Shown here one piece after another: positions 1-5,811 of a DNA stretch of 64,000 nt; positions within the stretch are counted from its first letter, which is position 1; the number at the start of each line of letters is the position of its first letter. The stretch spans positions 290 to 64,289 of the forward strand of contig CAZDUA010000004.1 of assembly GCA_964508495.1 (NCBI GenBank), given 5' to 3'. The notes under the pieces are model-generated. The model was not told where the DNA came from. It searched no databases and saw only the letters and a program-made list of their open reading frames with translations. Position numbers and translations under genes: made by a program. The DNA is from an uncultured Methanosarcinales archaeon (GTDB lineage: Archaea > Nanobdellota > Nanobdellia > Woesearchaeales > ARS49).

Positions 1-73
1 AGTAATCAATGACGATTTAAGGTCCTATTATGTTCATTGGATATATAGAAACGAACAAATATCAATCAACGTA

Positions 74-706
74 ATGAGCATTTCCCGAGAGTATGGCCCA
101 ACTCATTTAGTTCTAAATGACAACACACCCACGCCAGTGAGCTATGAAGGATTTCTCATTCCTGATAAAGAATGCATCCAGGCATATTTAGTAAATGTGC
201 GACCAACACGAATAACCGATGACGATAAAGTAGTTCCCGTTGGTGATTTTTGCATATTTACATTTCCAATAAATTTTGTTAACAGGGATAATTCTGCTAA
301 AAGGCTAACTCCTCTTTCTTTTACTCCACAGGTGCCATGTATCGACTGCATAGAGAATGAGGTTGCAATACAACACTATGGAACAAAATCTATAAACAAC
401 TTCTTCACAAGAATATGCATTGCTGGAGGCACTGTCAAAATTGTTGAAGGCGATAATTTCAGAAAGTCTAGCGACAATTGCGTTGAAATAAATTTACCAA
501 CGCTCAATCCCGGACAACTCATAAAAGGAAAATTCACAATAATAGACTATTCTGGTAAATCTGCCGGAATGAGTTTTGAAGGGTACAGTGATGAACAAGG
601 GCAAATTACTCAAGACAAATTTATTCATGTAGGTGCAATATTATTAGCTAACTGTGATGGCACAAATGTTACAAATAAAGAACGTTTAATCTGTGCTAAA
701 AGTTGA
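74..706 (+). CDS. hypothetical protein (210 aa)
   Basis: Intact ORF at the window edge with no motif I recognise. Less Lys/Glu-rich than most proteins here. Convergent with the PRTase/DprA pair. Confidence 0.4.
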   Translation: MSISREYGPTHLVLNDNTPTPVSYEGFLIPDKECIQAYLVNVRPTRITDDDKVVPVGDFCIFTFPINFVNRDNSAKRLTPLSFTPQVPCIDCIENEVAIQHYGTKSINNFFTRICIAGGTVKIVEGDNFRKSSDNCVEINLPTLNPGQLIKGKFTIIDYSGKSAGMSFEGYSDEQGQITQDKFIHVGAILLANCDGTNVTNKERLICAKS

Positions 707-734: not shown

Positions 735-1391
735 TCATGGATTTCGAAATGCATTTTCGTTACGGAGATCAATAGTGCCAACACAAGGATCTATCACTTG
801 CCGAAAATCAGTGTCTTTGCTAATTGTTCGCATCATTGCAAAACCAAAAATTGTTGCTTCAGGAAATGCCTCTTTTAGTACATTGGCGCATCCCAGAAGA
901 GTTGCTCCTCTCGTCACGATGTCATCAATTAGTACAATCTTCTGTGGTCTATGTATTCCTCGTTTTACTTTTATGCTGTTATAGTGATCTATTGGTTTTG
1001 GGCGTTCCGAGGAAAGTGAGGTTGCCGCTTTAGGGACGGCTTTTGTTCTTTCCAAGCAATTCATAATTGTTCCGAGACCTTTACGTTCCAACGCTTCTGC
1101 AATTTTCAGAGGAACCCAGAGAGTCCCGGGTTGCATCAAGGAACTCTTCGGAACTGGAACAAGATAAGTGTCACTTCCGAAGAAATCCTTGAACGGCAAA
1201 TGATGAAGCTCACTGAAAATTATTCCGACCAAATATTCTGAATAGGGCCCTTTCGATTGTGTCACCCAATCGTACTTGATTGATCGCATTATTTGTATTG
1301 ATTTTTGCGCCTCTTTGGACACTCCTCGAGGTGTATAGGTTAGGTATGAGCTAAAGGTCAAACTAGAAAGTAACATCGCCAAGGACCCCAT
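735..1391 (-). CDS. ComF-like phosphoribosyltransferase-fold protein
   Basis: PRPP-binding loop QKIVLIDDIVTRGATLLG and upstream YLVPVPKSS resemble ComF/type I PRTases. No N-terminal Cys4 zinc finger. Overlaps the dprA stop. Confidence 0.65.
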   Translation of the reverse strand: MGSLAMLLSSLTFSSYLTYTPRGVSKEAQKSIQIMRSIKYDWVTQSKGPYSEYLVGIIFSELHHLPFKDFFGSDTYLVPVPKSSLMQPGTLWVPLKIAEALERKGLGTIMNCLERTKAVPKAATSLSSERPKPIDHYNSIKVKRGIHRPQKIVLIDDIVTRGATLLGCANVLKEAFPEATIFGFAMMRTISKDTDFRQVIDPCVGTIDLRNENAFRNP

Positions 1392-2058
1392 TTATCGTCA
1401 AGGGAATAACCTCGAGCAGTTGGTCAAGGTGTTTCATCGAGAGAGAATGGGCTCCGTAGTCAATCATCTTTTGCGGCCAATCTACCTTTGGATTTTGAAG
1501 GAGCGTGTCCAAAATGAACAGAGGCCTCCCTAATCGAAGGGCTTCCCATCCTTGGTGAATTGTTCCACTTTTCTCGCCTGCTTCAACGATAATTGTGCCA
1601 TTAGAGAGAAGTGCCATTGTTCTATTTCGTATGGGAAAGTTTCTCGTTTGCGTAGGGTATCCTACGGGAAACTGCGAAATAAGGAGGTGATCTCTCGCAA
1701 TTCTTTGTTGCAATTCTGCGTTTTCAGGTGGATAACATTTGTCAATGGATGTGCCGAGGACTGCAATTGTTGCCCCGCCGTTCTTAATGGCAGTTTCGTG
1801 TGCAACGGAATCTATTCCGCGAGCAAGTCCGCTCACAATAACAACATTATGCTGAACTAAGAATTTAGCAATTTTGATGGTATTTTCAATGCCTTGGTCA
1901 GATGGTTTTCTTGTCCCGACAATGGCAAGACGAGGGCAATGAAACAGTTCACGATTTCCTTTGTAAAAAATTGTAGATGGAGAATATTTTTTCTCAACAT
2001 CATTCAATGGTCCCGTAAAATCTTCTATGGGACTACCTTTGATATGCGCAAACATCAA
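1363..2058 (-). CDS. dprA: DprA/Smf Rossmann (SLOG) domain protein
   Basis: Motifs IVGTRKPS, VSGLARGIDSVAHETAI, FPIRNRTMALLS and GEKSGT. Probable ATG at 2055 preceded by aaggaggg. Only the core domain is present. Confidence 0.8.
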   Translation of the reverse strand: MMFAHIKGSPIEDFTGPLNDVEKKYSPSTIFYKGNRELFHCPRLAIVGTRKPSDQGIENTIKIAKFLVQHNVVIVSGLARGIDSVAHETAIKNGGATIAVLGTSIDKCYPPENAELQQRIARDHLLISQFPVGYPTQTRNFPIRNRTMALLSNGTIIVEAGEKSGTIHQGWEALRLGRPLFILDTLLQNPKVDWPQKMIDYGAHSLSMKHLDQLLEVIPLTINGVLGDVTF

Positions 2059-2354
2059 GCCCTCCTTTTAATGTTGATAAGTAGTACTGGAATATAAACG
2101 TAATTGTTTTCGACCTTTATAAAAACCGCGTTTGAAAGTGGCCAGCGATCATCACGGAACTTTCACCCTTTGGACTATTTAAAGCTCGCTCTTTCCAATA
2201 GTTATTTAATGCTTGATTCGTTGCTTGGAATTTTATGAGCAAAAGAAATAAATACAAGCGGCACTTTAAAGCAAGTAGATTCTTGCACCTCAAGCAAGCA
2301 TTTACCAGCTTACGAAGAGGGTGCCGCTTCCCGTGTGAGGCTTACTTCTACAAA

Positions 2355-2366
2355 CCTTTAAAAACC
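2355..2366 (+). promoter_or_regulatory. archaeal TATA/BRE-like box for ABCE1
   Basis: cctttaaaaacc lies about 25 nt upstream of the ATG at 2388, implying a leaderless mRNA. Confidence 0.6.
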
Positions 2367-2387
2367 TAGTTCTAAGAGAATTATAAC

Positions 2388-4145
2388 ATGCCAAGAATAG
2401 CAATAGTCAGAAAGGACAGGTGCAACCCGCAAGGGTGCGGAGGATATCTTTGCGCTAGAGTCTGCCCTGTCAACATGGAAGGAAAAGACTGCATAAAACC
2501 AGCAGAAACAGGAGACAAAAAGCCCATAATAGATGAAAAACTATGCACGGGATGCGGAATATGCCCGAACAGGTGCCCATTCGGCGCAATAGACATTATT
2601 AATCTGCCAGAACAGCTGGAACATCCAATTCACAGGTACGGCAGAAACGGGTTTCACCTTTACTCCCTGCCAACACCAATATTCGGACAAGTCATAGGAA
2701 TAGTGGGCAGAAATGGAATAGGAAAATCAACAGCAATCAAAATACTAGCAGGAGTACTAAAACCAAACCTCGGCGCGGACAAAGATGCAGAATGGAACGA
2801 TTTAGTCAAATTCTTCAAAGGAAAAGAATCACAAACGTACTTCGAAGCAGTAAAAGAAGGCAAAATAAAAGTAGCGTACAAGCCACAGCACGTTGAATTG
2901 ATTGCGCAAACGCAGAAAGGAAAAGTGGGAGACTTATTGAAGAAAGTAGACGAAAGAAAAAAGTTTGATGAAATAGTAGACGCATTGCAATTAAGAGACG
3001 TCCTTGATAGAGAAGTAAGCCAAGTATCAGGCGGAGAACTACAAAGAATAGCAATAGCGGCAACAGTACTAAGACAAGCAAACCTGTACATATTTGATGA
3101 ACCAAGCTCATATCTTGACATCAAACAAAGAGTCAAGGTCAGCCAGTTCATCAAAAGTTTAGCGAACAAAGATACTGCAGTGCTTGTTGTAGAACATGAT
3201 TTGATAATCCTCGATTACATGACAGATTTATTGCACATAATGTACGGAAAAGAAGGAGCGTATGGAATAGTTAGTTTGCTAAAACCAACAAGAACAGGAA
3301 TGAACATCTACCTCGAAGGATACATCAAAGATGAAAACATGAGGTTCAGAGACCATGAAATAAAATTCTTATCAAGACCACCACCAAAACCGATCAGCAA
3401 AGTAATACTTACCGCATGGGGAGCGGTTGAAAAGAAATTGGGAGACTTCACACTCAAAGCAATGGAAGGAAACATAGGAAGAAACCAGATTATCGGCATA
3501 TTAGGAGAAAACGGAATAGGAAAAACAACATTCATCAAAATACTCGCAGGACAAATAAAACCAGACGCAGGAGAAATAGACACCAAAGTAACAGTCTCAT
3601 ACAAACCACAATACTTAGAGGGAAACAGCGACGAACTAGTAATAACTGTTTTGAAAGACGCGACTTCTAAATATAACAACCAACTAATAAAACCATTAGA
3701 GATACACAATTTATTGATGAAGCCATTGAATACCCTATCAGGCGGAGAATTACAAAGAGTAGCAATAGCGCACTGCCTGTCACAACCAGCAGACATGTAT
3801 CTGTTGGATGAACCGAGCGCTTACTTGGACATTGAACAAAGACTTGCATTCAGCAAAGTTATCAGAGACGTGGCAGAACAACGAGGCGTAAGCGTGCTAA
3901 TAGTAGACCATGACTTGCTGTTCATTGATTATTTAGCAGACAAGCTCATTGTGTTCGACGGAAAACCAGCAAAACACGGAATGGTAGAAGGACCATACTC
4001 AATGGAGGCAGGAATGAACAAGTTCCTGACAGATTTGAGAATAACAATGAGAAGAGACAAAGAGAGTAACAGGCCAAGAATAAACAAACCTGAGGGCAGG
4101 TTGGATAGAGAACAGAGAGAAGCCGGCAAATTGTATTACAGCTAA
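2388..4145 (+). CDS. abce1: ABCE1 / RNase L inhibitor-type ribosome recycling ATPase
   Basis: N-terminal 2x[4Fe-4S] Cys motifs (CNPQGCGGYLCARVCP, CTGCGICPNRCP) followed by two ABC cassettes (GxNGxGKST/T, LSGGELQR x2). Confidence 0.95.
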   Translation: MPRIAIVRKDRCNPQGCGGYLCARVCPVNMEGKDCIKPAETGDKKPIIDEKLCTGCGICPNRCPFGAIDIINLPEQLEHPIHRYGRNGFHLYSLPTPIFGQVIGIVGRNGIGKSTAIKILAGVLKPNLGADKDAEWNDLVKFFKGKESQTYFEAVKEGKIKVAYKPQHVELIAQTQKGKVGDLLKKVDERKKFDEIVDALQLRDVLDREVSQVSGGELQRIAIAATVLRQANLYIFDEPSSYLDIKQRVKVSQFIKSLANKDTAVLVVEHDLIILDYMTDLLHIMYGKEGAYGIVSLLKPTRTGMNIYLEGYIKDENMRFRDHEIKFLSRPPPKPISKVILTAWGAVEKKLGDFTLKAMEGNIGRNQIIGILGENGIGKTTFIKILAGQIKPDAGEIDTKVTVSYKPQYLEGNSDELVITVLKDATSKYNNQLIKPLEIHNLLMKPLNTLSGGELQRVAIAHCLSQPADMYLLDEPSAYLDIEQRLAFSKVIRDVAEQRGVSVLIVDHDLLFIDYLADKLIVFDGKPAKHGMVEGPYSMEAGMNKFLTDLRITMRRDKESNRPRINKPEGRLDREQREAGKLYYS

Positions 4146-4157
4146 GCCGAAGCAAAG

Positions 4158-4170
4158 GTTTTTATAAAAA
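4158..4170 (+). promoter_or_regulatory. TATA/BRE-like box
   Basis: ggtttttataaaa lies about 25 nt upstream of the ATG at 4189. Confidence 0.55.
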
Positions 4171-4188
4171 CTTAGTGGAGAAACCAGT

Positions 4189-5811
4189 ATGAGTGAAAAA
4201 GAGGCATTTGAGCTCTGGAAAGAACTAAGCCCAGGAAGCGCATTCGGAGCAGGACTAAAAAAGTACGCAGGACACATATGGATACCAACCCATTCTAATA
4301 TCAAAAATGCGCTAATGCGAATAAACAAACTAGAGAAAAAATCAGATATTGTTGTGAAAAAATTCTTGGCGACAATGAGAAGATCGCTGATAATAGAAGA
4401 ACCACACGACCCCCCAGGCGAGATATTGAATACATTCTACACACACCTGGTCATTGAAGGCGTCAACGAAAAACACATGCTGTCATTAGCAGAACAATCG
4501 CTCAACTTCCTAGGCGTACAAGAAGACCTATGGGACAAAAAATGGCCGGTAGAATTCCAAATATTCAGCTCACAAGCATGCGACGGGGCAAAAGCAGTAA
4601 TAGAAACAATCAAGAAAAAATGCAAAAGAAAAGAAGTCAAACAAGCACTAACAGCAGTACAAAAAAGATTAGACATCTGGAAGAAAAACACTGCATTTGT
4701 ACATCTAAAAAGAAATGATTTCACAGAAATTTATCCGATTCTTAAAAAAAGGTCAAAAGGACTGGGCAGGAAGAACACTTACAGAGCTACAATCAAAGAC
4801 TTGTACGATTACATAGAAACACCAGAAGAAATGGAAAAACTAGCATTATCATGGATTGACGAAGAACTGCCAACTTTCAAAAAAGTCCTCCAAAAAATAG
4901 CAAAAAGGTACAAGTGCAAGCCAACAGTAGAAGACATAGAAAAAGCAATAGAGAAAAATCAGTATGTTGCGCCAAAAACACTGGTAAAAACAATAACAAG
5001 CCTGCGAAAAGCACTACAAAAACTAGCAGACGCTGAATGGGTGACAATAACGCCAAAATACGATGTGAGAGTCATTGAAACGCCAGATTATCTAGTGCCA
5101 TTCCTGCCGACAGCAGCAATGCAAACATTCAACACACTAACAAAACCATTCTGCCTGTACTTTGCAACGACAGACATCAAAGCAAGCCCAAGCACAGCGC
5201 TGCCTGATGTTGCGCAGACAACAATACATGAAGAATACGGGCATTGCGTCAACTTCTTGAACAGCTACACAACAGGAAAACCAAGAATAATAGAAATAAT
5301 AGGAAGCAGTCTTGACACTCCAATAACAGAAGGAATATCATTCTACAGAGAACTAGAGTCGCTCAAAACATTTAGAAGAATACTCACAAAAGGAGCGCAC
5401 AACAAAATAGAAAAAGACGTCATCAAAGAAATAGAAAAACACTGCACGCTAGAAGAGTTCTATGACGGTCTAGAGTTTATCGTCATGCAATGGAGAATGG
5501 TCAGATTTTTACGAGCACTAAGCGATGTAAGAATAAATCTTGAGAAGCAAACATTCCCGCAGTTCATCGAGTGGGCGCACAAGAAGACAGGGTTGACAAG
5601 AAAGCTGATTTACGACCAAACAATACACTTCCAAGAAAACCCAGGATACGCGCCATGCTACAGCATGTTCGGACAAAAACTAAGACAAATGCAAACACAA
5701 GCGGTAAAGAAAGGATTCACGCAAAAAGAATTCAACACGTTTGTCGCAAGCGCAGGATTCCCAGCAAGAAGCATATTCGAAGAAAGAATAAAGAAAAAAT
5801 TCAAGCTTTAA
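4189..5811 (+). CDS. putative metallopeptidase-like protein (HExxH, DUF885-like)
   Basis: IHEEYGHCVNF (HExxH) followed by EGISFYRE, reminiscent of the DUF885 family. Family assignment is tentative. Confidence 0.45.
   Translation: MSEKEAFELWKELSPGSAFGAGLKKYAGHIWIPTHSNIKNALMRINKLEKKSDIVVKKFLATMRRSLIIEEPHDPPGEILNTFYTHLVIEGVNEKHMLSLAEQSLNFLGVQEDLWDKKWPVEFQIFSSQACDGAKAVIETIKKKCKRKEVKQALTAVQKRLDIWKKNTAFVHLKRNDFTEIYPILKKRSKGLGRKNTYRATIKDLYDYIETPEEMEKLALSWIDEELPTFKKVLQKIAKRYKCKPTVEDIEKAIEKNQYVAPKTLVKTITSLRKALQKLADAEWVTITPKYDVRVIETPDYLVPFLPTAAMQTFNTLTKPFCLYFATTDIKASPSTALPDVAQTTIHEEYGHCVNFLNSYTTGKPRIIEIIGSSLDTPITEGISFYRELESLKTFRRILTKGAHNKIEKDVIKEIEKHCTLEEFYDGLEFIVMQWRMVRFLRALSDVRINLEKQTFPQFIEWAHKKTGLTRKLIYDQTIHFQENPGYAPCYSMFGQKLRQMQTQAVKKGFTQKEFNTFVASAGFPARSIFEERIKKKFKL

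What the first reader, a model, noticed from the sequence alone, without database searches (positions are those of the whole stretch)
735..2058. Overlapping DprA (SLOG) + ComF-like phosphoribosyltransferase gene pair in an archaeal genome, in a compositionally atypical edge region
Seen directly: a core-only DprA (GLARGIDSVAHETAI, FPIRNRTMALLS; no SAM or C-terminal winged-helix domains) overlaps a 218-aa PRTase-fold protein (KIVLIDDIVTRGATLLG) that lacks the ComFC zinc finger. dprA has a strong Shine-Dalgarno sequence (aaggaggg), unlike the mostly leaderless genes elsewhere in the window. The proteins are less Lys/Glu-rich than their neighbours, and an unknown 210-aa ORF is convergent with the pair. 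Established knowledge: in bacteria DprA and ComFC act together in handling transforming ssDNA. SLOG and PRTase domains also recur in nucleotide-centred conflict systems. Inference: this is either a horizontally acquired minimal DNA-uptake/processing module, plausible for a host-dependent small-genome archaeon, or a two-gene defence-type module.
Basis: partly seen in the sequence, partly recalled or inferred. Interest (0 to 1): 0.6.

Follow-up and report, generated by a model that had tools for sequence, protein, structure and literature searches.

The report
Minimal archaeal ShosTA toxin-antitoxin defence pair
The two overlapping genes are a stripped-down archaeal copy of ShosTA, a known toxin-antitoxin anti-virus system (a DprA-like DNA-binding antitoxin and a phosphoribosyltransferase toxin), sitting in a variable slot of a tiny DPANN-type genome; it is an ordinary new member of a known kind, not a DNA-uptake module.

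Summary
A 230-aa core-only DprA-fold gene (1363-2055, minus strand) overlaps by 14 nt a 213-aa single-domain PRTase gene (735-1376, minus strand), and GGAGG lies 5 nt before the first ATG.

PADLOC's broad Shosta models match both proteins: ShosA E 1.6e-76, ShosT E 3.7e-25 over nearly the full length. The same models match the validated E. coli P2-type ShosTA. The DprA and ComF family cut-offs are not reached.

The pair is a conserved module. In 74 of the 80 closest loci in species genomes, a ShosA-like ORF sits directly upstream of the PRTase (median gap 3 nt). Neighbours vary and never include competence genes. 72 of the 80 loci are archaeal, and the window's pair falls in a DPANN clade.

Within its own lineage the pair is sporadic: 4 of 401 phylum genomes, and none of 14 congeners has this form. 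It lies in a slot upstream of ABCE1 that differs between congeners. Its base composition is ordinary.

Compared with E. coli ShosTA, it lacks the SAM and pyrophosphatase domains and the RecA-contact residues. The host has RadA and no ComEC.

ShosTA is already reported as common in archaea, and this scan found the same minimal form before in other DPANN genomes. Interest is low.

The parts
1363..2055 (-). shosA-like gene: 230-aa DprA-fold (SLOG) protein, the presumed antitoxin and ssDNA binder. It has no SAM domain and no C-terminal winged helix. An alternative TTG start lies at 2058.
   Evidence: PF02481 E 4.7e-58. PADLOC ShosA PDLC03961 E 1.6e-76. AlphaFold2 pLDDT 92.7 with a disordered tail at 221-229. 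Foldseek TMq 0.79 to S. pneumoniae DprA and 0.74 to E. coli ShosA 8zva. R49 and R143, which align with the E. coli ssDNA-binding residues R139 and R234, are invariant in 70 of 70 family members.
735..1376 (-). shosT-like gene: 213-aa single-domain type I phosphoribosyltransferase, the presumed toxin. It has no N-terminal pyrophosphatase/HAD domain and no zinc finger. An upstream in-frame ATG lies at 1391.
   Evidence: PADLOC ShosT PDLC03962 E 3.7e-25 over profile positions 29-217 of 237. Family of about 215-aa proteins with invariant D151/D152 (PRPP loop DDIVTRGAT), R125 and H131. AlphaFold2 pLDDT 94.6. Foldseek best matches are H. pylori ComF 7p0h and E. coli ShosT 8zvc/8zvd/8zvb.
1363..1376 (-). 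14-nt overlap between the end of shosA and the start of shosT, suggesting translational coupling with the antitoxin gene first.
   Evidence: Read from the sequence. The same 14-nt overlap occurs in L101. The median gap in 74 related pairs is 3 nt.
2060..2067 (-). Shine-Dalgarno sequence AAGGAGGG, with GGAGG 5 nt upstream of the shosA ATG.
   Evidence: Read from the sequence. GGAGG is found upstream of only 27 of 804 crude genes in this genome.
2091..2098 (-). TTTATATT, a candidate archaeal TATA box about 40 nt upstream of the shosA ATG. It would give a short leader that contains the Shine-Dalgarno site.
   Evidence: Read from the sequence. This is inference only; no promoter tool for archaea was available.

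Best explanation
The pair is a minimal ShosTA (Shosta) toxin-antitoxin module of the abortive-infection type, carried as accessory cargo in a variable genomic slot of a DPANN-type archaeon.

**Shown here**
- Family membership, by the broad curated models.
- Conserved two-gene architecture with the antitoxin gene first.
- An intact PRPP-binding site in the PRTase.
- Intact ssDNA-binding arginines in the DprA-like protein.
- Sporadic distribution in the lineage.

**Inferred from E. coli ShosTA (PMC11961720, PMC12961424)**
- ShosT uses PRPP in a phosphoribosyl-transfer reaction that disturbs purine/nucleotide metabolism, damaging or blocking DNA replication.
- ShosA does not bind the toxin. It neutralises the damage through ssDNA binding and recombination-type repair.
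- When a virus shuts off host gene expression or floods the cell with ssDNA, the labile or titrated ShosA fails. The pre-made ShosT then arrests or kills the cell before the virus completes its cycle.
- The 14-nt overlap and the strong Shine-Dalgarno site on shosA would keep antitoxin synthesis at or above toxin synthesis.
- The disordered 9-residue C-tail may be the instability element.

**Different in this form**
- There is no SAM domain and no pyrophosphatase domain.
- The host has no RecA, so any recombinase partner would have to be RadA, or there is none.
For: - **Models.** PADLOC ShosA E 1.6e-76 and ShosT E 3.7e-25. The same two broad models hit the E. coli P2-type ShosTA (2.4e-85 and 1.8e-53) and a Burkholderia prophage pair (3.3e-97 and 1.2e-41).
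- **Conserved pairing.** 74 of the 80 closest loci have a ShosA-like ORF directly upstream on the same strand; median gap 3 nt, median lengths 233 and 217 aa. Four of the other six are cut at a contig end, one (L095) has ShosA next to a partial PRTase match, and one (L064) is an N-truncated orphan PRTase.
- **Gene order.** The order A then T is the same as in Peduovirus P2_4C9, where a 349-aa Smf is followed by a 424-aa ShosT.
- **Catalytic and binding residues.** D151/D152 (= E. coli D331/D332), R125 and H131 are invariant. R49 and R143 (= E. coli R139 and R234) are invariant.
- **Structure.** The PRTase model is closest to ComF and ShosT. The DprA-like model has TMq 0.74-0.80 to DprA and ShosA, with a disordered C-tail.
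- **Neighbourhoods.** The 148 neighbouring ORFs fall in 138 Pfam families, none present more than 4 times. They include a few transposases, integrases, PIN, AbiE-type and helicase genes, and no competence genes.
- **Patchy carriage.** ShosA-type genes occur in 5 of 61 relatives, and the short ShosT in 4 of 401 phylum genomes, in 4 different genera.
- **Variable slot.** The region upstream of ABCE1 holds different ORFs in different congeners.
- **Literature.** ShosTA is reported as frequent in archaea (bioRxiv 10.1101/2024.10.26.620412; PMC11291487).
Against: - No experiment exists on this short form.
- By sequence, the PRTase has no detectable similarity to E. coli ShosT beyond the PRPP loop. 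BLASTP gives 30% identity over 46 aa, and PDB searches with the single sequence and with the profile find no ShosT.
- The DprA-like protein is closer to S. pneumoniae DprA (E 4e-36) than to E. coli ShosA (E 4e-21).
- The broad PADLOC models are not specific on their own. They also match canonical DprA or PRTase genes in 10 and 13 of 14 control genomes.
- SAM deletion destabilised E. coli ShosA (PMC12961424), yet this protein has no SAM domain.
- The E. coli RecA-contact residues K200 and R206 correspond to P110 and Q116 here, and the host has only RadA-type recombinases. The antitoxin mechanism therefore cannot simply be carried over.
- Anti-virus function as opposed to plain addiction is not shown.
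Confidence: 0.85

Rival explanations
1. It is a minimal DNA-uptake/processing module. The DprA-like protein protects incoming ssDNA and the ComF-like PRTase handles it at the membrane, which would help a host-dependent archaeon scavenge or recombine foreign DNA.
For: The top structural match of the PRTase is H. pylori ComF (E 4.5e-5, TMq 0.49). The best NCBIfam hit is the ComF subfamily (E 1.1e-6). The DprA-like protein is closest in sequence and structure to the competence DprA of S. pneumoniae. The ssDNA-binding arginines are conserved.
Against: ComF scores 28.7 bits against a cut-off of 233.55, and DprA scores 174.8 against 191.15. There is no zinc finger. No ComEC is found in a genome complete by marker genes. 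There is no RecA, only RadA-type recombinases. No competence gene occurs among 148 neighbours at 37 related loci. The pair is found in only 4 of 401 genomes of the phylum, which suits accessory cargo and not a lineage-wide uptake function. ShosT of E. coli is an almost equally good structural match.
Confidence: 0.05
2. It is a toxin-antitoxin addiction module that only stabilises the mobile or variable DNA segment it sits on, with no role in virus defence.
For: It has the same architecture as a toxin-antitoxin pair. It lies in a strain-specific segment beside a low-GC ORFan found in none of 40 relatives. Some related loci sit next to transposases and integrases. An orphan, N-truncated toxin copy without antitoxin exists (L064), as expected for decaying toxin-antitoxin loci.
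Against: Bacterial ShosTA systems that match the same broad models protect against phages (PMC11961720; 10.1101/2022.05.11.491447). Most related loci lie among ordinary chromosomal genes without mobile-element markers. The two roles are not exclusive.
Confidence: 0.08
3. It is a metabolic or regulatory nucleotide-salvage PRTase (orotate or purine type) whose SLOG-fold partner binds a nucleotide ligand.
For: By sequence, the only PDB hits of the PRTase are orotate PRTases (E 0.007-0.06). They share an R-x-K-x-x-D-H flexible-loop motif. SLOG proteins include nucleotide-processing LOG enzymes (lower ranks).
Against: Those hits are not significant and cover only the PRPP and flexible loops. All metabolic NCBIfam models score 12-15 bits against cut-offs of 106-322. 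The strict pairing with a DprA-like gene in 74 of 80 loci and the presence in 1% of the phylum's genomes do not fit a housekeeping enzyme. The partner has the DprA ssDNA-binding arginines.
Confidence: 0.02

Closest known systems
E. coli ShosTA (APEC O1 / KTE181 / P2-like prophage hotspot; ShosT 424 aa, ShosA about 328-349 aa; PDB 8ZVA-8ZVD, 9VZO; Pu 2025 PMC11961720, Yang 2026 PMC12961424)
   Same: It is a two-gene operon with the DprA-like gene first and the PRTase gene second. Both pairs match the broad PADLOC models PDLC03961 and PDLC03962. The PRPP-loop Asp-Asp dyad and the two essential ssDNA-binding arginines are conserved. ShosA has a disordered C-terminal tail. The folds are similar.
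   Different: The window's ShosA has no SAM domain (230 aa against about 328). Its ShosT has no N-terminal pyrophosphatase domain (213 aa against 424). The E. coli-specific models do not fit: PDLC02997 reaches only E 9.4e-23, and PDLC03012 gives no hit. PRTase sequence similarity is limited to the PRPP loop. RecA-contact residues K200 and R206 correspond to P110 and Q116, and R261 to W170. The host is an archaeon with RadA instead of RecA.
Short-ShosT prophage pairs, e.g. Burkholderia phage Mana gp51/gp52 (DprA 282 aa + PRTase 225 aa beside the integrase)
   Same: The PRTase is single-domain and the two genes overlap in the order A then T. ShosA is 47% identical over 210 aa, including the C-terminal W-P...G-A motif. 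Both hit PDLC03961 and PDLC03962.
   Different: The phage ShosA keeps an N-terminal extension of about 55 aa. The two PRTases share only the PRPP loop (33% over 40 aa), so the toxin partner belongs to a different branch. The carrier is a bacterial temperate phage.
Canonical competence pair DprA (TIGR00732) and ComFC (TIGR00201; H. pylori ComF 7P0H)
   Same: The folds are the same: DprA Rossmann/SLOG, and a ComF-type type I PRTase with the LVPVP...motif region and the DD-x-x-T-x-G loop. The DprA ssDNA-binding residues are present.
   Different: Scores fall below both family cut-offs. There is no ComF zinc finger, no DprA SAM or DML1 domain, no ComEC and no RecA in the genome. The two genes are fused into one operon and are sporadic in distribution, whereas dprA and comFC are usually separate core competence genes (established knowledge).
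PsyrTA / RqlHI (RecQ-like helicase-PRTase toxin + DprA-like antitoxin)
   Same: A DprA-like antitoxin is paired with a PRTase-containing toxin. Weaker hits were found to PsyrA (E 4.2e-31) and to the PRTase end of PsyrT (E 2.4e-4).
   Different: PsyrT is about 689 aa with a helicase, and only its last 80 positions match. The ShosA/ShosT models fit far better.

Membership tests
ShosTA / Shosta (broad family, as modelled in PADLOC PDLC03961 + PDLC03962) | The DprA-like protein matches the ShosA model. | tested here: met
   E 1.6e-76, 255.5 bits, residues 17-207 against profile positions 90-283 of 303. The first 89 profile positions, which correspond to the SAM region, are absent. Caveat: the model also matches canonical DprA in 10 of 14 control genomes.
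ShosTA / Shosta (broad family, as modelled in PADLOC PDLC03961 + PDLC03962) | The PRTase matches the ShosT model over most of its length. | tested here: met
   E 3.7e-25, 87.2 bits, residues 18-195 against profile positions 29-217 of 237. The same model hits the 424-aa E. coli-type ShosT at E 1.8e-53. Housekeeping PRTases in relatives match only the PRPP loop, at 19-30 bits.
ShosTA / Shosta (broad family, as modelled in PADLOC PDLC03961 + PDLC03962) | The two genes are adjacent, co-directional and conserved as a pair. | tested here: met
   14-nt overlap in the window. 74 of the 80 closest loci keep the pair, with a median gap of 3 nt.
ShosTA / Shosta (broad family, as modelled in PADLOC PDLC03961 + PDLC03962) | PRPP-binding acidic dyad required for toxicity (E. 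coli D331/D332). | tested here: met
   D151/D152 in DDIVTRGAT are invariant in 40 and in 70 family members. They align with E. coli IDDFCTEG.
ShosTA / Shosta (broad family, as modelled in PADLOC PDLC03961 + PDLC03962) | ssDNA-binding arginines required for antitoxin activity (E. coli R139, R234). | tested here: met
   R49 and R143 align with them and are invariant in 70 of 70 members.
ShosTA / Shosta (broad family, as modelled in PADLOC PDLC03961 + PDLC03962) | The PRTase is toxic, the DprA-like protein neutralises it, and the pair protects against viruses. | not testable with these tools
   This needs expression and infection assays. No experiment on this short form was found in the papers read.
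E. coli-type ShosTA subfamily (PDLC02997 + PDLC03012) | ShosA has an N-terminal SAM domain (residues 1-94). | tested here: not met
   Only about 23 residues precede the DprA domain. The model is a single domain. PDLC02997 reaches only E 9.4e-23, against 2.2e-231 for the P2-type protein.
E. coli-type ShosTA subfamily (PDLC02997 + PDLC03012) | ShosT has an N-terminal pyrophosphatase-fold domain (residues 1-164). | tested here: not met
   The protein is a 213-aa single PRTase domain. PDLC03012 gives no hit at E <= 0.1.
E. coli-type ShosTA subfamily (PDLC02997 + PDLC03012) | RecA-contact residues K200 and R206 on ShosA. | tested here: not met
   They correspond to P110 (variable in the family: K29 R13 Q10 S7 A6 P2) and Q116 (Q in 69 of 70). 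The host has Rad51/RadA-type recombinases.
DprA (TIGR00732 equivalog) | The score reaches the curated cut-off. | tested here: not met
   174.8 bits against 191.15. The Pfam domain PF02481 itself is clearly present.
ComF / ComFC (TIGR00201) | The score reaches the curated cut-off, and an N-terminal zinc finger is present. | tested here: not met
   28.7 bits against 233.55. The N-terminus has no Cys pairs. Structural similarity to H. pylori ComF is only moderate, TMq 0.49.
Natural-competence system (genome level) | A ComEC channel is present in the genome. | tested here: not met
   PF03772 gives no match in the genome, which is 100% complete by marker genes.
Metabolic type I PRTases (OPRT, HGPRT, APRT, PRPP synthase) | The score reaches any curated family cut-off. 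| tested here: not met
   The best scores are 12-15 bits against cut-offs of 106-322. PDB orotate-PRTase hits have E 0.007-0.06.

The most novel reading that the evidence does not exclude
This SAM-less, pyrophosphatase-less pair may represent a mainly archaeal branch of ShosTA in which the antitoxin works without RecA, either through RadA or through ssDNA binding alone. That would mean the core ShosTA mechanism needs only a DprA Rossmann domain and a bare PRTase. It would also make the family an archaeal anti-virus abortive-infection system whose family-specific invariant residues (Q116, W170, the C-terminal W193-P...Y200-G-A motif) mark a new partner interface.
Probability: 0.3. Interest if true: 0.45.

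Novelty: new member of a known kind. Interest (0 to 1): 0.22.

Why it matters
On its own it matters little. It adds one more defence or toxin-antitoxin locus to a DPANN genome, standard tools recognise it, ShosTA is already reported as common in archaea, and this scan has already described the same minimal form elsewhere.

Its modest value is comparative. The archaeal short form removes three things that the E. coli studies treat as important: the SAM domain, the pyrophosphatase domain and the RecA interface. It keeps the PRPP site and the ssDNA-binding arginines. It is therefore a natural minimal construct for asking what ShosT actually modifies and how a DprA-like protein neutralises it without binding it.

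It also corrects the tempting reading that a DPANN archaeon carries a competence module.

Tried and rejected
1. **Apparent ShosA-ShosT fusion ORFs.** L043, L048 and L055 seemed to hold fused ORFs of 447-460 aa. This was an artefact of my ORF routine: an in-frame stop separates the genes, with 3 nt between that stop and the next start.
2. **Sequence link to solved ShosT or ComF structures.** None was found with the single sequence or the family profile; only marginal orotate-PRTase hits appeared. The link rests on PADLOC models and on Foldseek.
3. **RNA genes around the pair.** No tRNA or Rfam family lies within 4.8 kb of the contig end.
4. **The 329-nt shosA-ABCE1 spacer as a mobile-element copy.** It is not repeated in the genome and is unlike the small DPANN hairpin element noted elsewhere in this window.
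5. **Joining contig C3's end to C4's start.** No terminal sequence overlap exists. Synteny with G009 and G004 and a tRNA-Thr 135 nt from the C3 end make the join plausible, but it is not shown.
6. **Carriage on viruses.** IMG/VR holds only 5 distant loci at 27-36% identity. GenBank phages hold ShosA-like genes at up to 47% identity, but with a different PRTase branch.
7. **A conserved third gene or defence-island context.** None was found; neighbours are heterogeneous.
8. **The convergent 283-aa ORF as part of the module.** It is absent from all 80 related loci and from 40 relatives.
Full report
**1. What is in the sequence**

The window starts 289 nt from one end of contig C4 of an 880-kb, 37-contig genome that is 100% complete by marker genes.

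Two ORFs lie on the minus strand, as described:
- 1363..2058: 231 aa from TTG, or 230 aa from the ATG at 2055.
- 735..1391: 218 aa.

All three quoted motifs are present.

The PRTase most likely starts at the second ATG (1376), giving 213 aa:
- The database gene call is 213 aa.
- The family consensus N-terminus MxLSxLEFGS aligns with MLLSSLTFSS.

The true overlap is therefore 14 nt. A 75%-identical groundwater contig shows the same arrangement, 230 aa plus 213 aa with a 14-nt overlap.

AAGGAGGG lies at 2067-2060, with GGAGG 5 nt before the ATG at 2055. A TTTATATT box at 2098-2091 could be the promoter; this is inference only.

**2. Composition and translation signals**

| Gene | GC | z | Lys+Glu |
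|---|---|---|---|
| ShosA-like | 0.433 | +0.36 | 10.4% (17th percentile) |
| ShosT-like | 0.416 | -0.33 | 12.1% (26th percentile) |
| Genome, 804 crude genes | 0.424 +/- 0.025 | | 15.1% +/- 5.0 |

The pair is therefore compositionally ordinary.

Only the convergent ORF is atypical, with GC 0.37 (z -2.2) and GC3 z -2.7.

A full GGAGG precedes only 27 of 804 crude genes. The strong Shine-Dalgarno site is therefore unusual for this genome. The caveat is that the crude gene starts are approximate.

**3. Identity of the proteins**

The first protein is a DprA-domain protein:
- PF02481 gives E 4.7e-58 over residues 24-206.
- It falls just below the DprA equivalog cut-off, 174.8 against 191.15 bits.

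The second protein has only weak generic PRTase hits:
- It scores 28.7 bits on the ComF subfamily model, against a cut-off of 233.55.

Against PADLOC, both match the Shosta system:
- ShosA PDLC03961: E 1.6e-76.
- ShosT PDLC03962: E 3.7e-25, covering profile positions 29-217 of 237.

I checked what these two models stand for:
- They hit the 349-aa Smf and 424-aa partner of Peduovirus P2_4C9, the E. coli P2-hotspot type of ShosTA, at 2.4e-85 and 1.8e-53.
- They hit a Burkholderia prophage pair at 3.3e-97 and 1.2e-41.
- The E. coli-specific models PDLC02997 and PDLC03012 fit the P2 pair (2.2e-231 and 3.4e-294) but not the window's pair.

The window's pair therefore belongs to the broad ShosTA family and not to the E. 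coli subfamily.

The broad models alone are not specific. They also match canonical DprA or PRTase genes in most control genomes. The conserved pairing described next therefore carries much of the weight.

**4. The pair is a conserved, self-contained module**

The PRTase belongs to a family of single-domain proteins of about 215 aa:
- 250 word-indexed hits.
- 743 representatives at E <= 1e-30 among 1.84 billion.

In one genome per species, the 80 closest of 177 loci show a ShosA-like ORF directly upstream on the same strand in 74 cases. The median gap is 3 nt, and the median lengths are 233 and 217 aa.

The six exceptions are:
- four loci cut at the contig end;
- one (L095) with a ShosA ORF next to only a partial PRTase match;
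- one (L064) that is an N-terminally truncated orphan PRTase beside AbiE-like genes.

The two nearest ORFs on each side of 37 loci (148 ORFs) fall into 138 Pfam families:
- None occurs more than four times.
- A few are ResIII/DEAD helicases, DDE transposases, integrases, PIN, MNT or AbiEii-type genes.
- No competence gene appears.

**5. Who carries it**

- Of the 80 closest loci, 72 are archaeal: Nitrososphaerota, Bathyarchaeia, Woesearchaeota/Nanoarchaeota and one Aenigmatarchaeota. Eight are bacterial. This ranking favours relatives of the query, so it does not settle the family's origin.
- A tree of the concatenated pair places the window in a clade of Woesearchaeota and Nanoarchaeota (SH-aLRT 97). 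Phylum labels are strongly clustered, with 12 changes against 29.5 when shuffled.
- Within the host's own lineage the pair is sporadic. ShosA-type genes occur in 5 of 61 relatives. The short ShosT occurs in 4 of 401 high-quality genomes of the phylum, in four different genera.
- The other carriers near the host have different variants. G011 has a 262-aa ShosA with a 361-aa HAD-like::PRTase protein. G024 has a zinc-ribbon ComF-like protein followed by a 293-aa DprA, next to a family B DNA polymerase.

**6. Genomic slot**

- ABCE1, 330 nt upstream and divergent, is conserved at 84-88% identity in all 14 congeners.
- What lies upstream of it differs from genome to genome: nothing extra in G003, and unrelated ORFs in G004, G005, G006, G007, G009, G010/G012 and G013.
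- The conserved flanking blocks of those genomes map to both ends of contig C3 in this genome.
- The C3 end carries tRNA-Thr(TGT) 135 nt from the break.
- No sequence overlap proves a C3-C4 join.
- The 283-aa membrane-anchored neighbour has no homologue in 40 relatives.
- The pair is therefore accessory cargo in a variable slot. Horizontal movement is inferred from its patchiness, not from its composition.

**7. Structure and residues**

*PRTase*
- The AlphaFold2 model has pLDDT 94.6.
- Its best matches are H. pylori ComF (E 4.5e-5, TMq 0.49) and then E. coli ShosT (8zvc, 8zvd, 8zvb; TMq 0.42-0.48, rmsd 3.3-3.4). Metabolic PRTases rank lower.
- By sequence, only the PRPP loop is shared with E. 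coli ShosT and with the Burkholderia phage PRTase.
- D151/D152 (= E. coli D331/D332, required for toxicity), R125, H131 and K34 are invariant.
- An R-P-K-x-x-D-H stretch resembles the catalytic flexible loop of orotate PRTases.

*ShosA-like protein*
- The model has pLDDT 92.7 and is a single DprA domain.
- TMq is 0.79 to S. pneumoniae DprA, 0.76 to H. pylori DprA and 0.74 to E. coli ShosA.
- The tail at 221-229 is disordered. E. coli ShosA also has a disordered tail, which mediates its instability (PMC11961720).

*Mapping onto 8zva* (chain numbering = paper numbering + 5)

| E. coli ShosA residue | Role in E. coli | Window residue | Family conservation |
|---|---|---|---|
| R139 | ssDNA binding, essential | R49 | 70 of 70 |
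| R234 | ssDNA binding, essential | R143 | 70 of 70 |
| R261 | ssDNA binding, dispensable | W170 | W in 69 of 70 |
| K200 | RecA contact | P110 | variable |
| R206 | RecA contact | Q116 | Q in 69 of 70 |

The genome encodes RadA-type recombinases and no ComEC.

**8. Mechanism**

*Shown here*
- Family membership, architecture, intact catalytic and DNA-binding residues, and accessory distribution.

*Inferred from E. coli work (PMC11961720, PMC12961424)*
- ShosT is a PRPP-dependent toxin that perturbs purine metabolism and DNA integrity.
- ShosA neutralises it indirectly, through ssDNA binding and recombination.
- Viral shut-off of host expression, or viral ssDNA, releases the toxin and aborts the infection.

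*Not transferable as such*
- The roles of the SAM domain, the pyrophosphatase domain and RecA.

**9. Novelty**

- ShosTA was defined by Kimelman 2012, Rousset 2022 and Millman 2022, and crystallised in 2025-26.
- Surveys already list it among the most frequent archaeal defence systems and as enriched in archaea.
- This scan has already described minimal archaeal ShosTA pairs in other DPANN genomes (e1-1417883, e1-1229972).
- This is therefore a new member of a known kind.
- The residual interest is the untested minimal form in hosts without RecA.

Noticed in passing
window 1-706 (+); full ORF = contig C4:144-995: The convergent neighbour is a 283-aa ORF with an N-terminal membrane helix, low GC (0.37, z -2.2; GC3 z -2.7) and no Pfam, NCBIfam or PADLOC hit. 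It has no homologue in 40 related genomes or in the 80 ShosTA loci. It looks like strain-specific cargo of unknown function beside the toxin-antitoxin pair.
   Followed up: partly
window 2256-2342 (shosA-ABCE1 spacer): This segment folds strongly (about -33 kcal/mol for 105 nt). Its right half (2276-2342) is about 80% conserved upstream of ABCE1 in three congeners that lack this ShosTA form (G006, G004, G002). It therefore belongs to the conserved ABCE1 side and not to the cargo. It is not a genomic repeat, has no Rfam hit, and is unlike the DPANN hairpin element noted elsewhere in this window.
   Followed up: partly
upstream of ABCE1 (window 2388); loci L118-L126; contig C3:82907-84272: The slot upstream of ABCE1 is a variable hotspot in this genus: each congener holds different ORFs there. 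In this genome the flanking conserved genes lie at the ends of contig C3, and tRNA-Thr(TGT) sits 135 nt from the C3 end. This suggests, but does not prove, a tRNA-adjacent insertion site spanning the C3-C4 break.
   Followed up: partly
L016 (G011:C80) 577-2437; L015 (G024:C22) 1474-3041: Other DprA-PRTase variants occur in close relatives. One pairs a 262-aa ShosA with a 361-aa HAD-like::PRTase protein. The other, in reverse gene order, pairs a 229-aa zinc-ribbon ComF-like PRTase with a 293-aa DprA, next to a family B DNA polymerase gene. Several distinct branches of this system type therefore circulate in one DPANN family.
   Followed up: partly
L134 (Burkholderia phage Mana, NC_055863) 2303-3776: The prophage ShosA is 47% identical to the archaeal one, including the C-terminal WP...GA motif. 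The partnered PRTases share only the PRPP loop. The antitoxin appears conserved across domains while the toxin partner has diverged or been exchanged.
   Followed up: partly
L064 (Nitrosopumilus chromosome OZ250186) 4067-4621: An orphan, N-terminally truncated ShosT-like ORF (184 aa) has no ShosA upstream and lies beside AbiE-like genes. It looks like a decaying copy, as expected if the toxin cannot be kept intact without its antitoxin.
   Followed up: no
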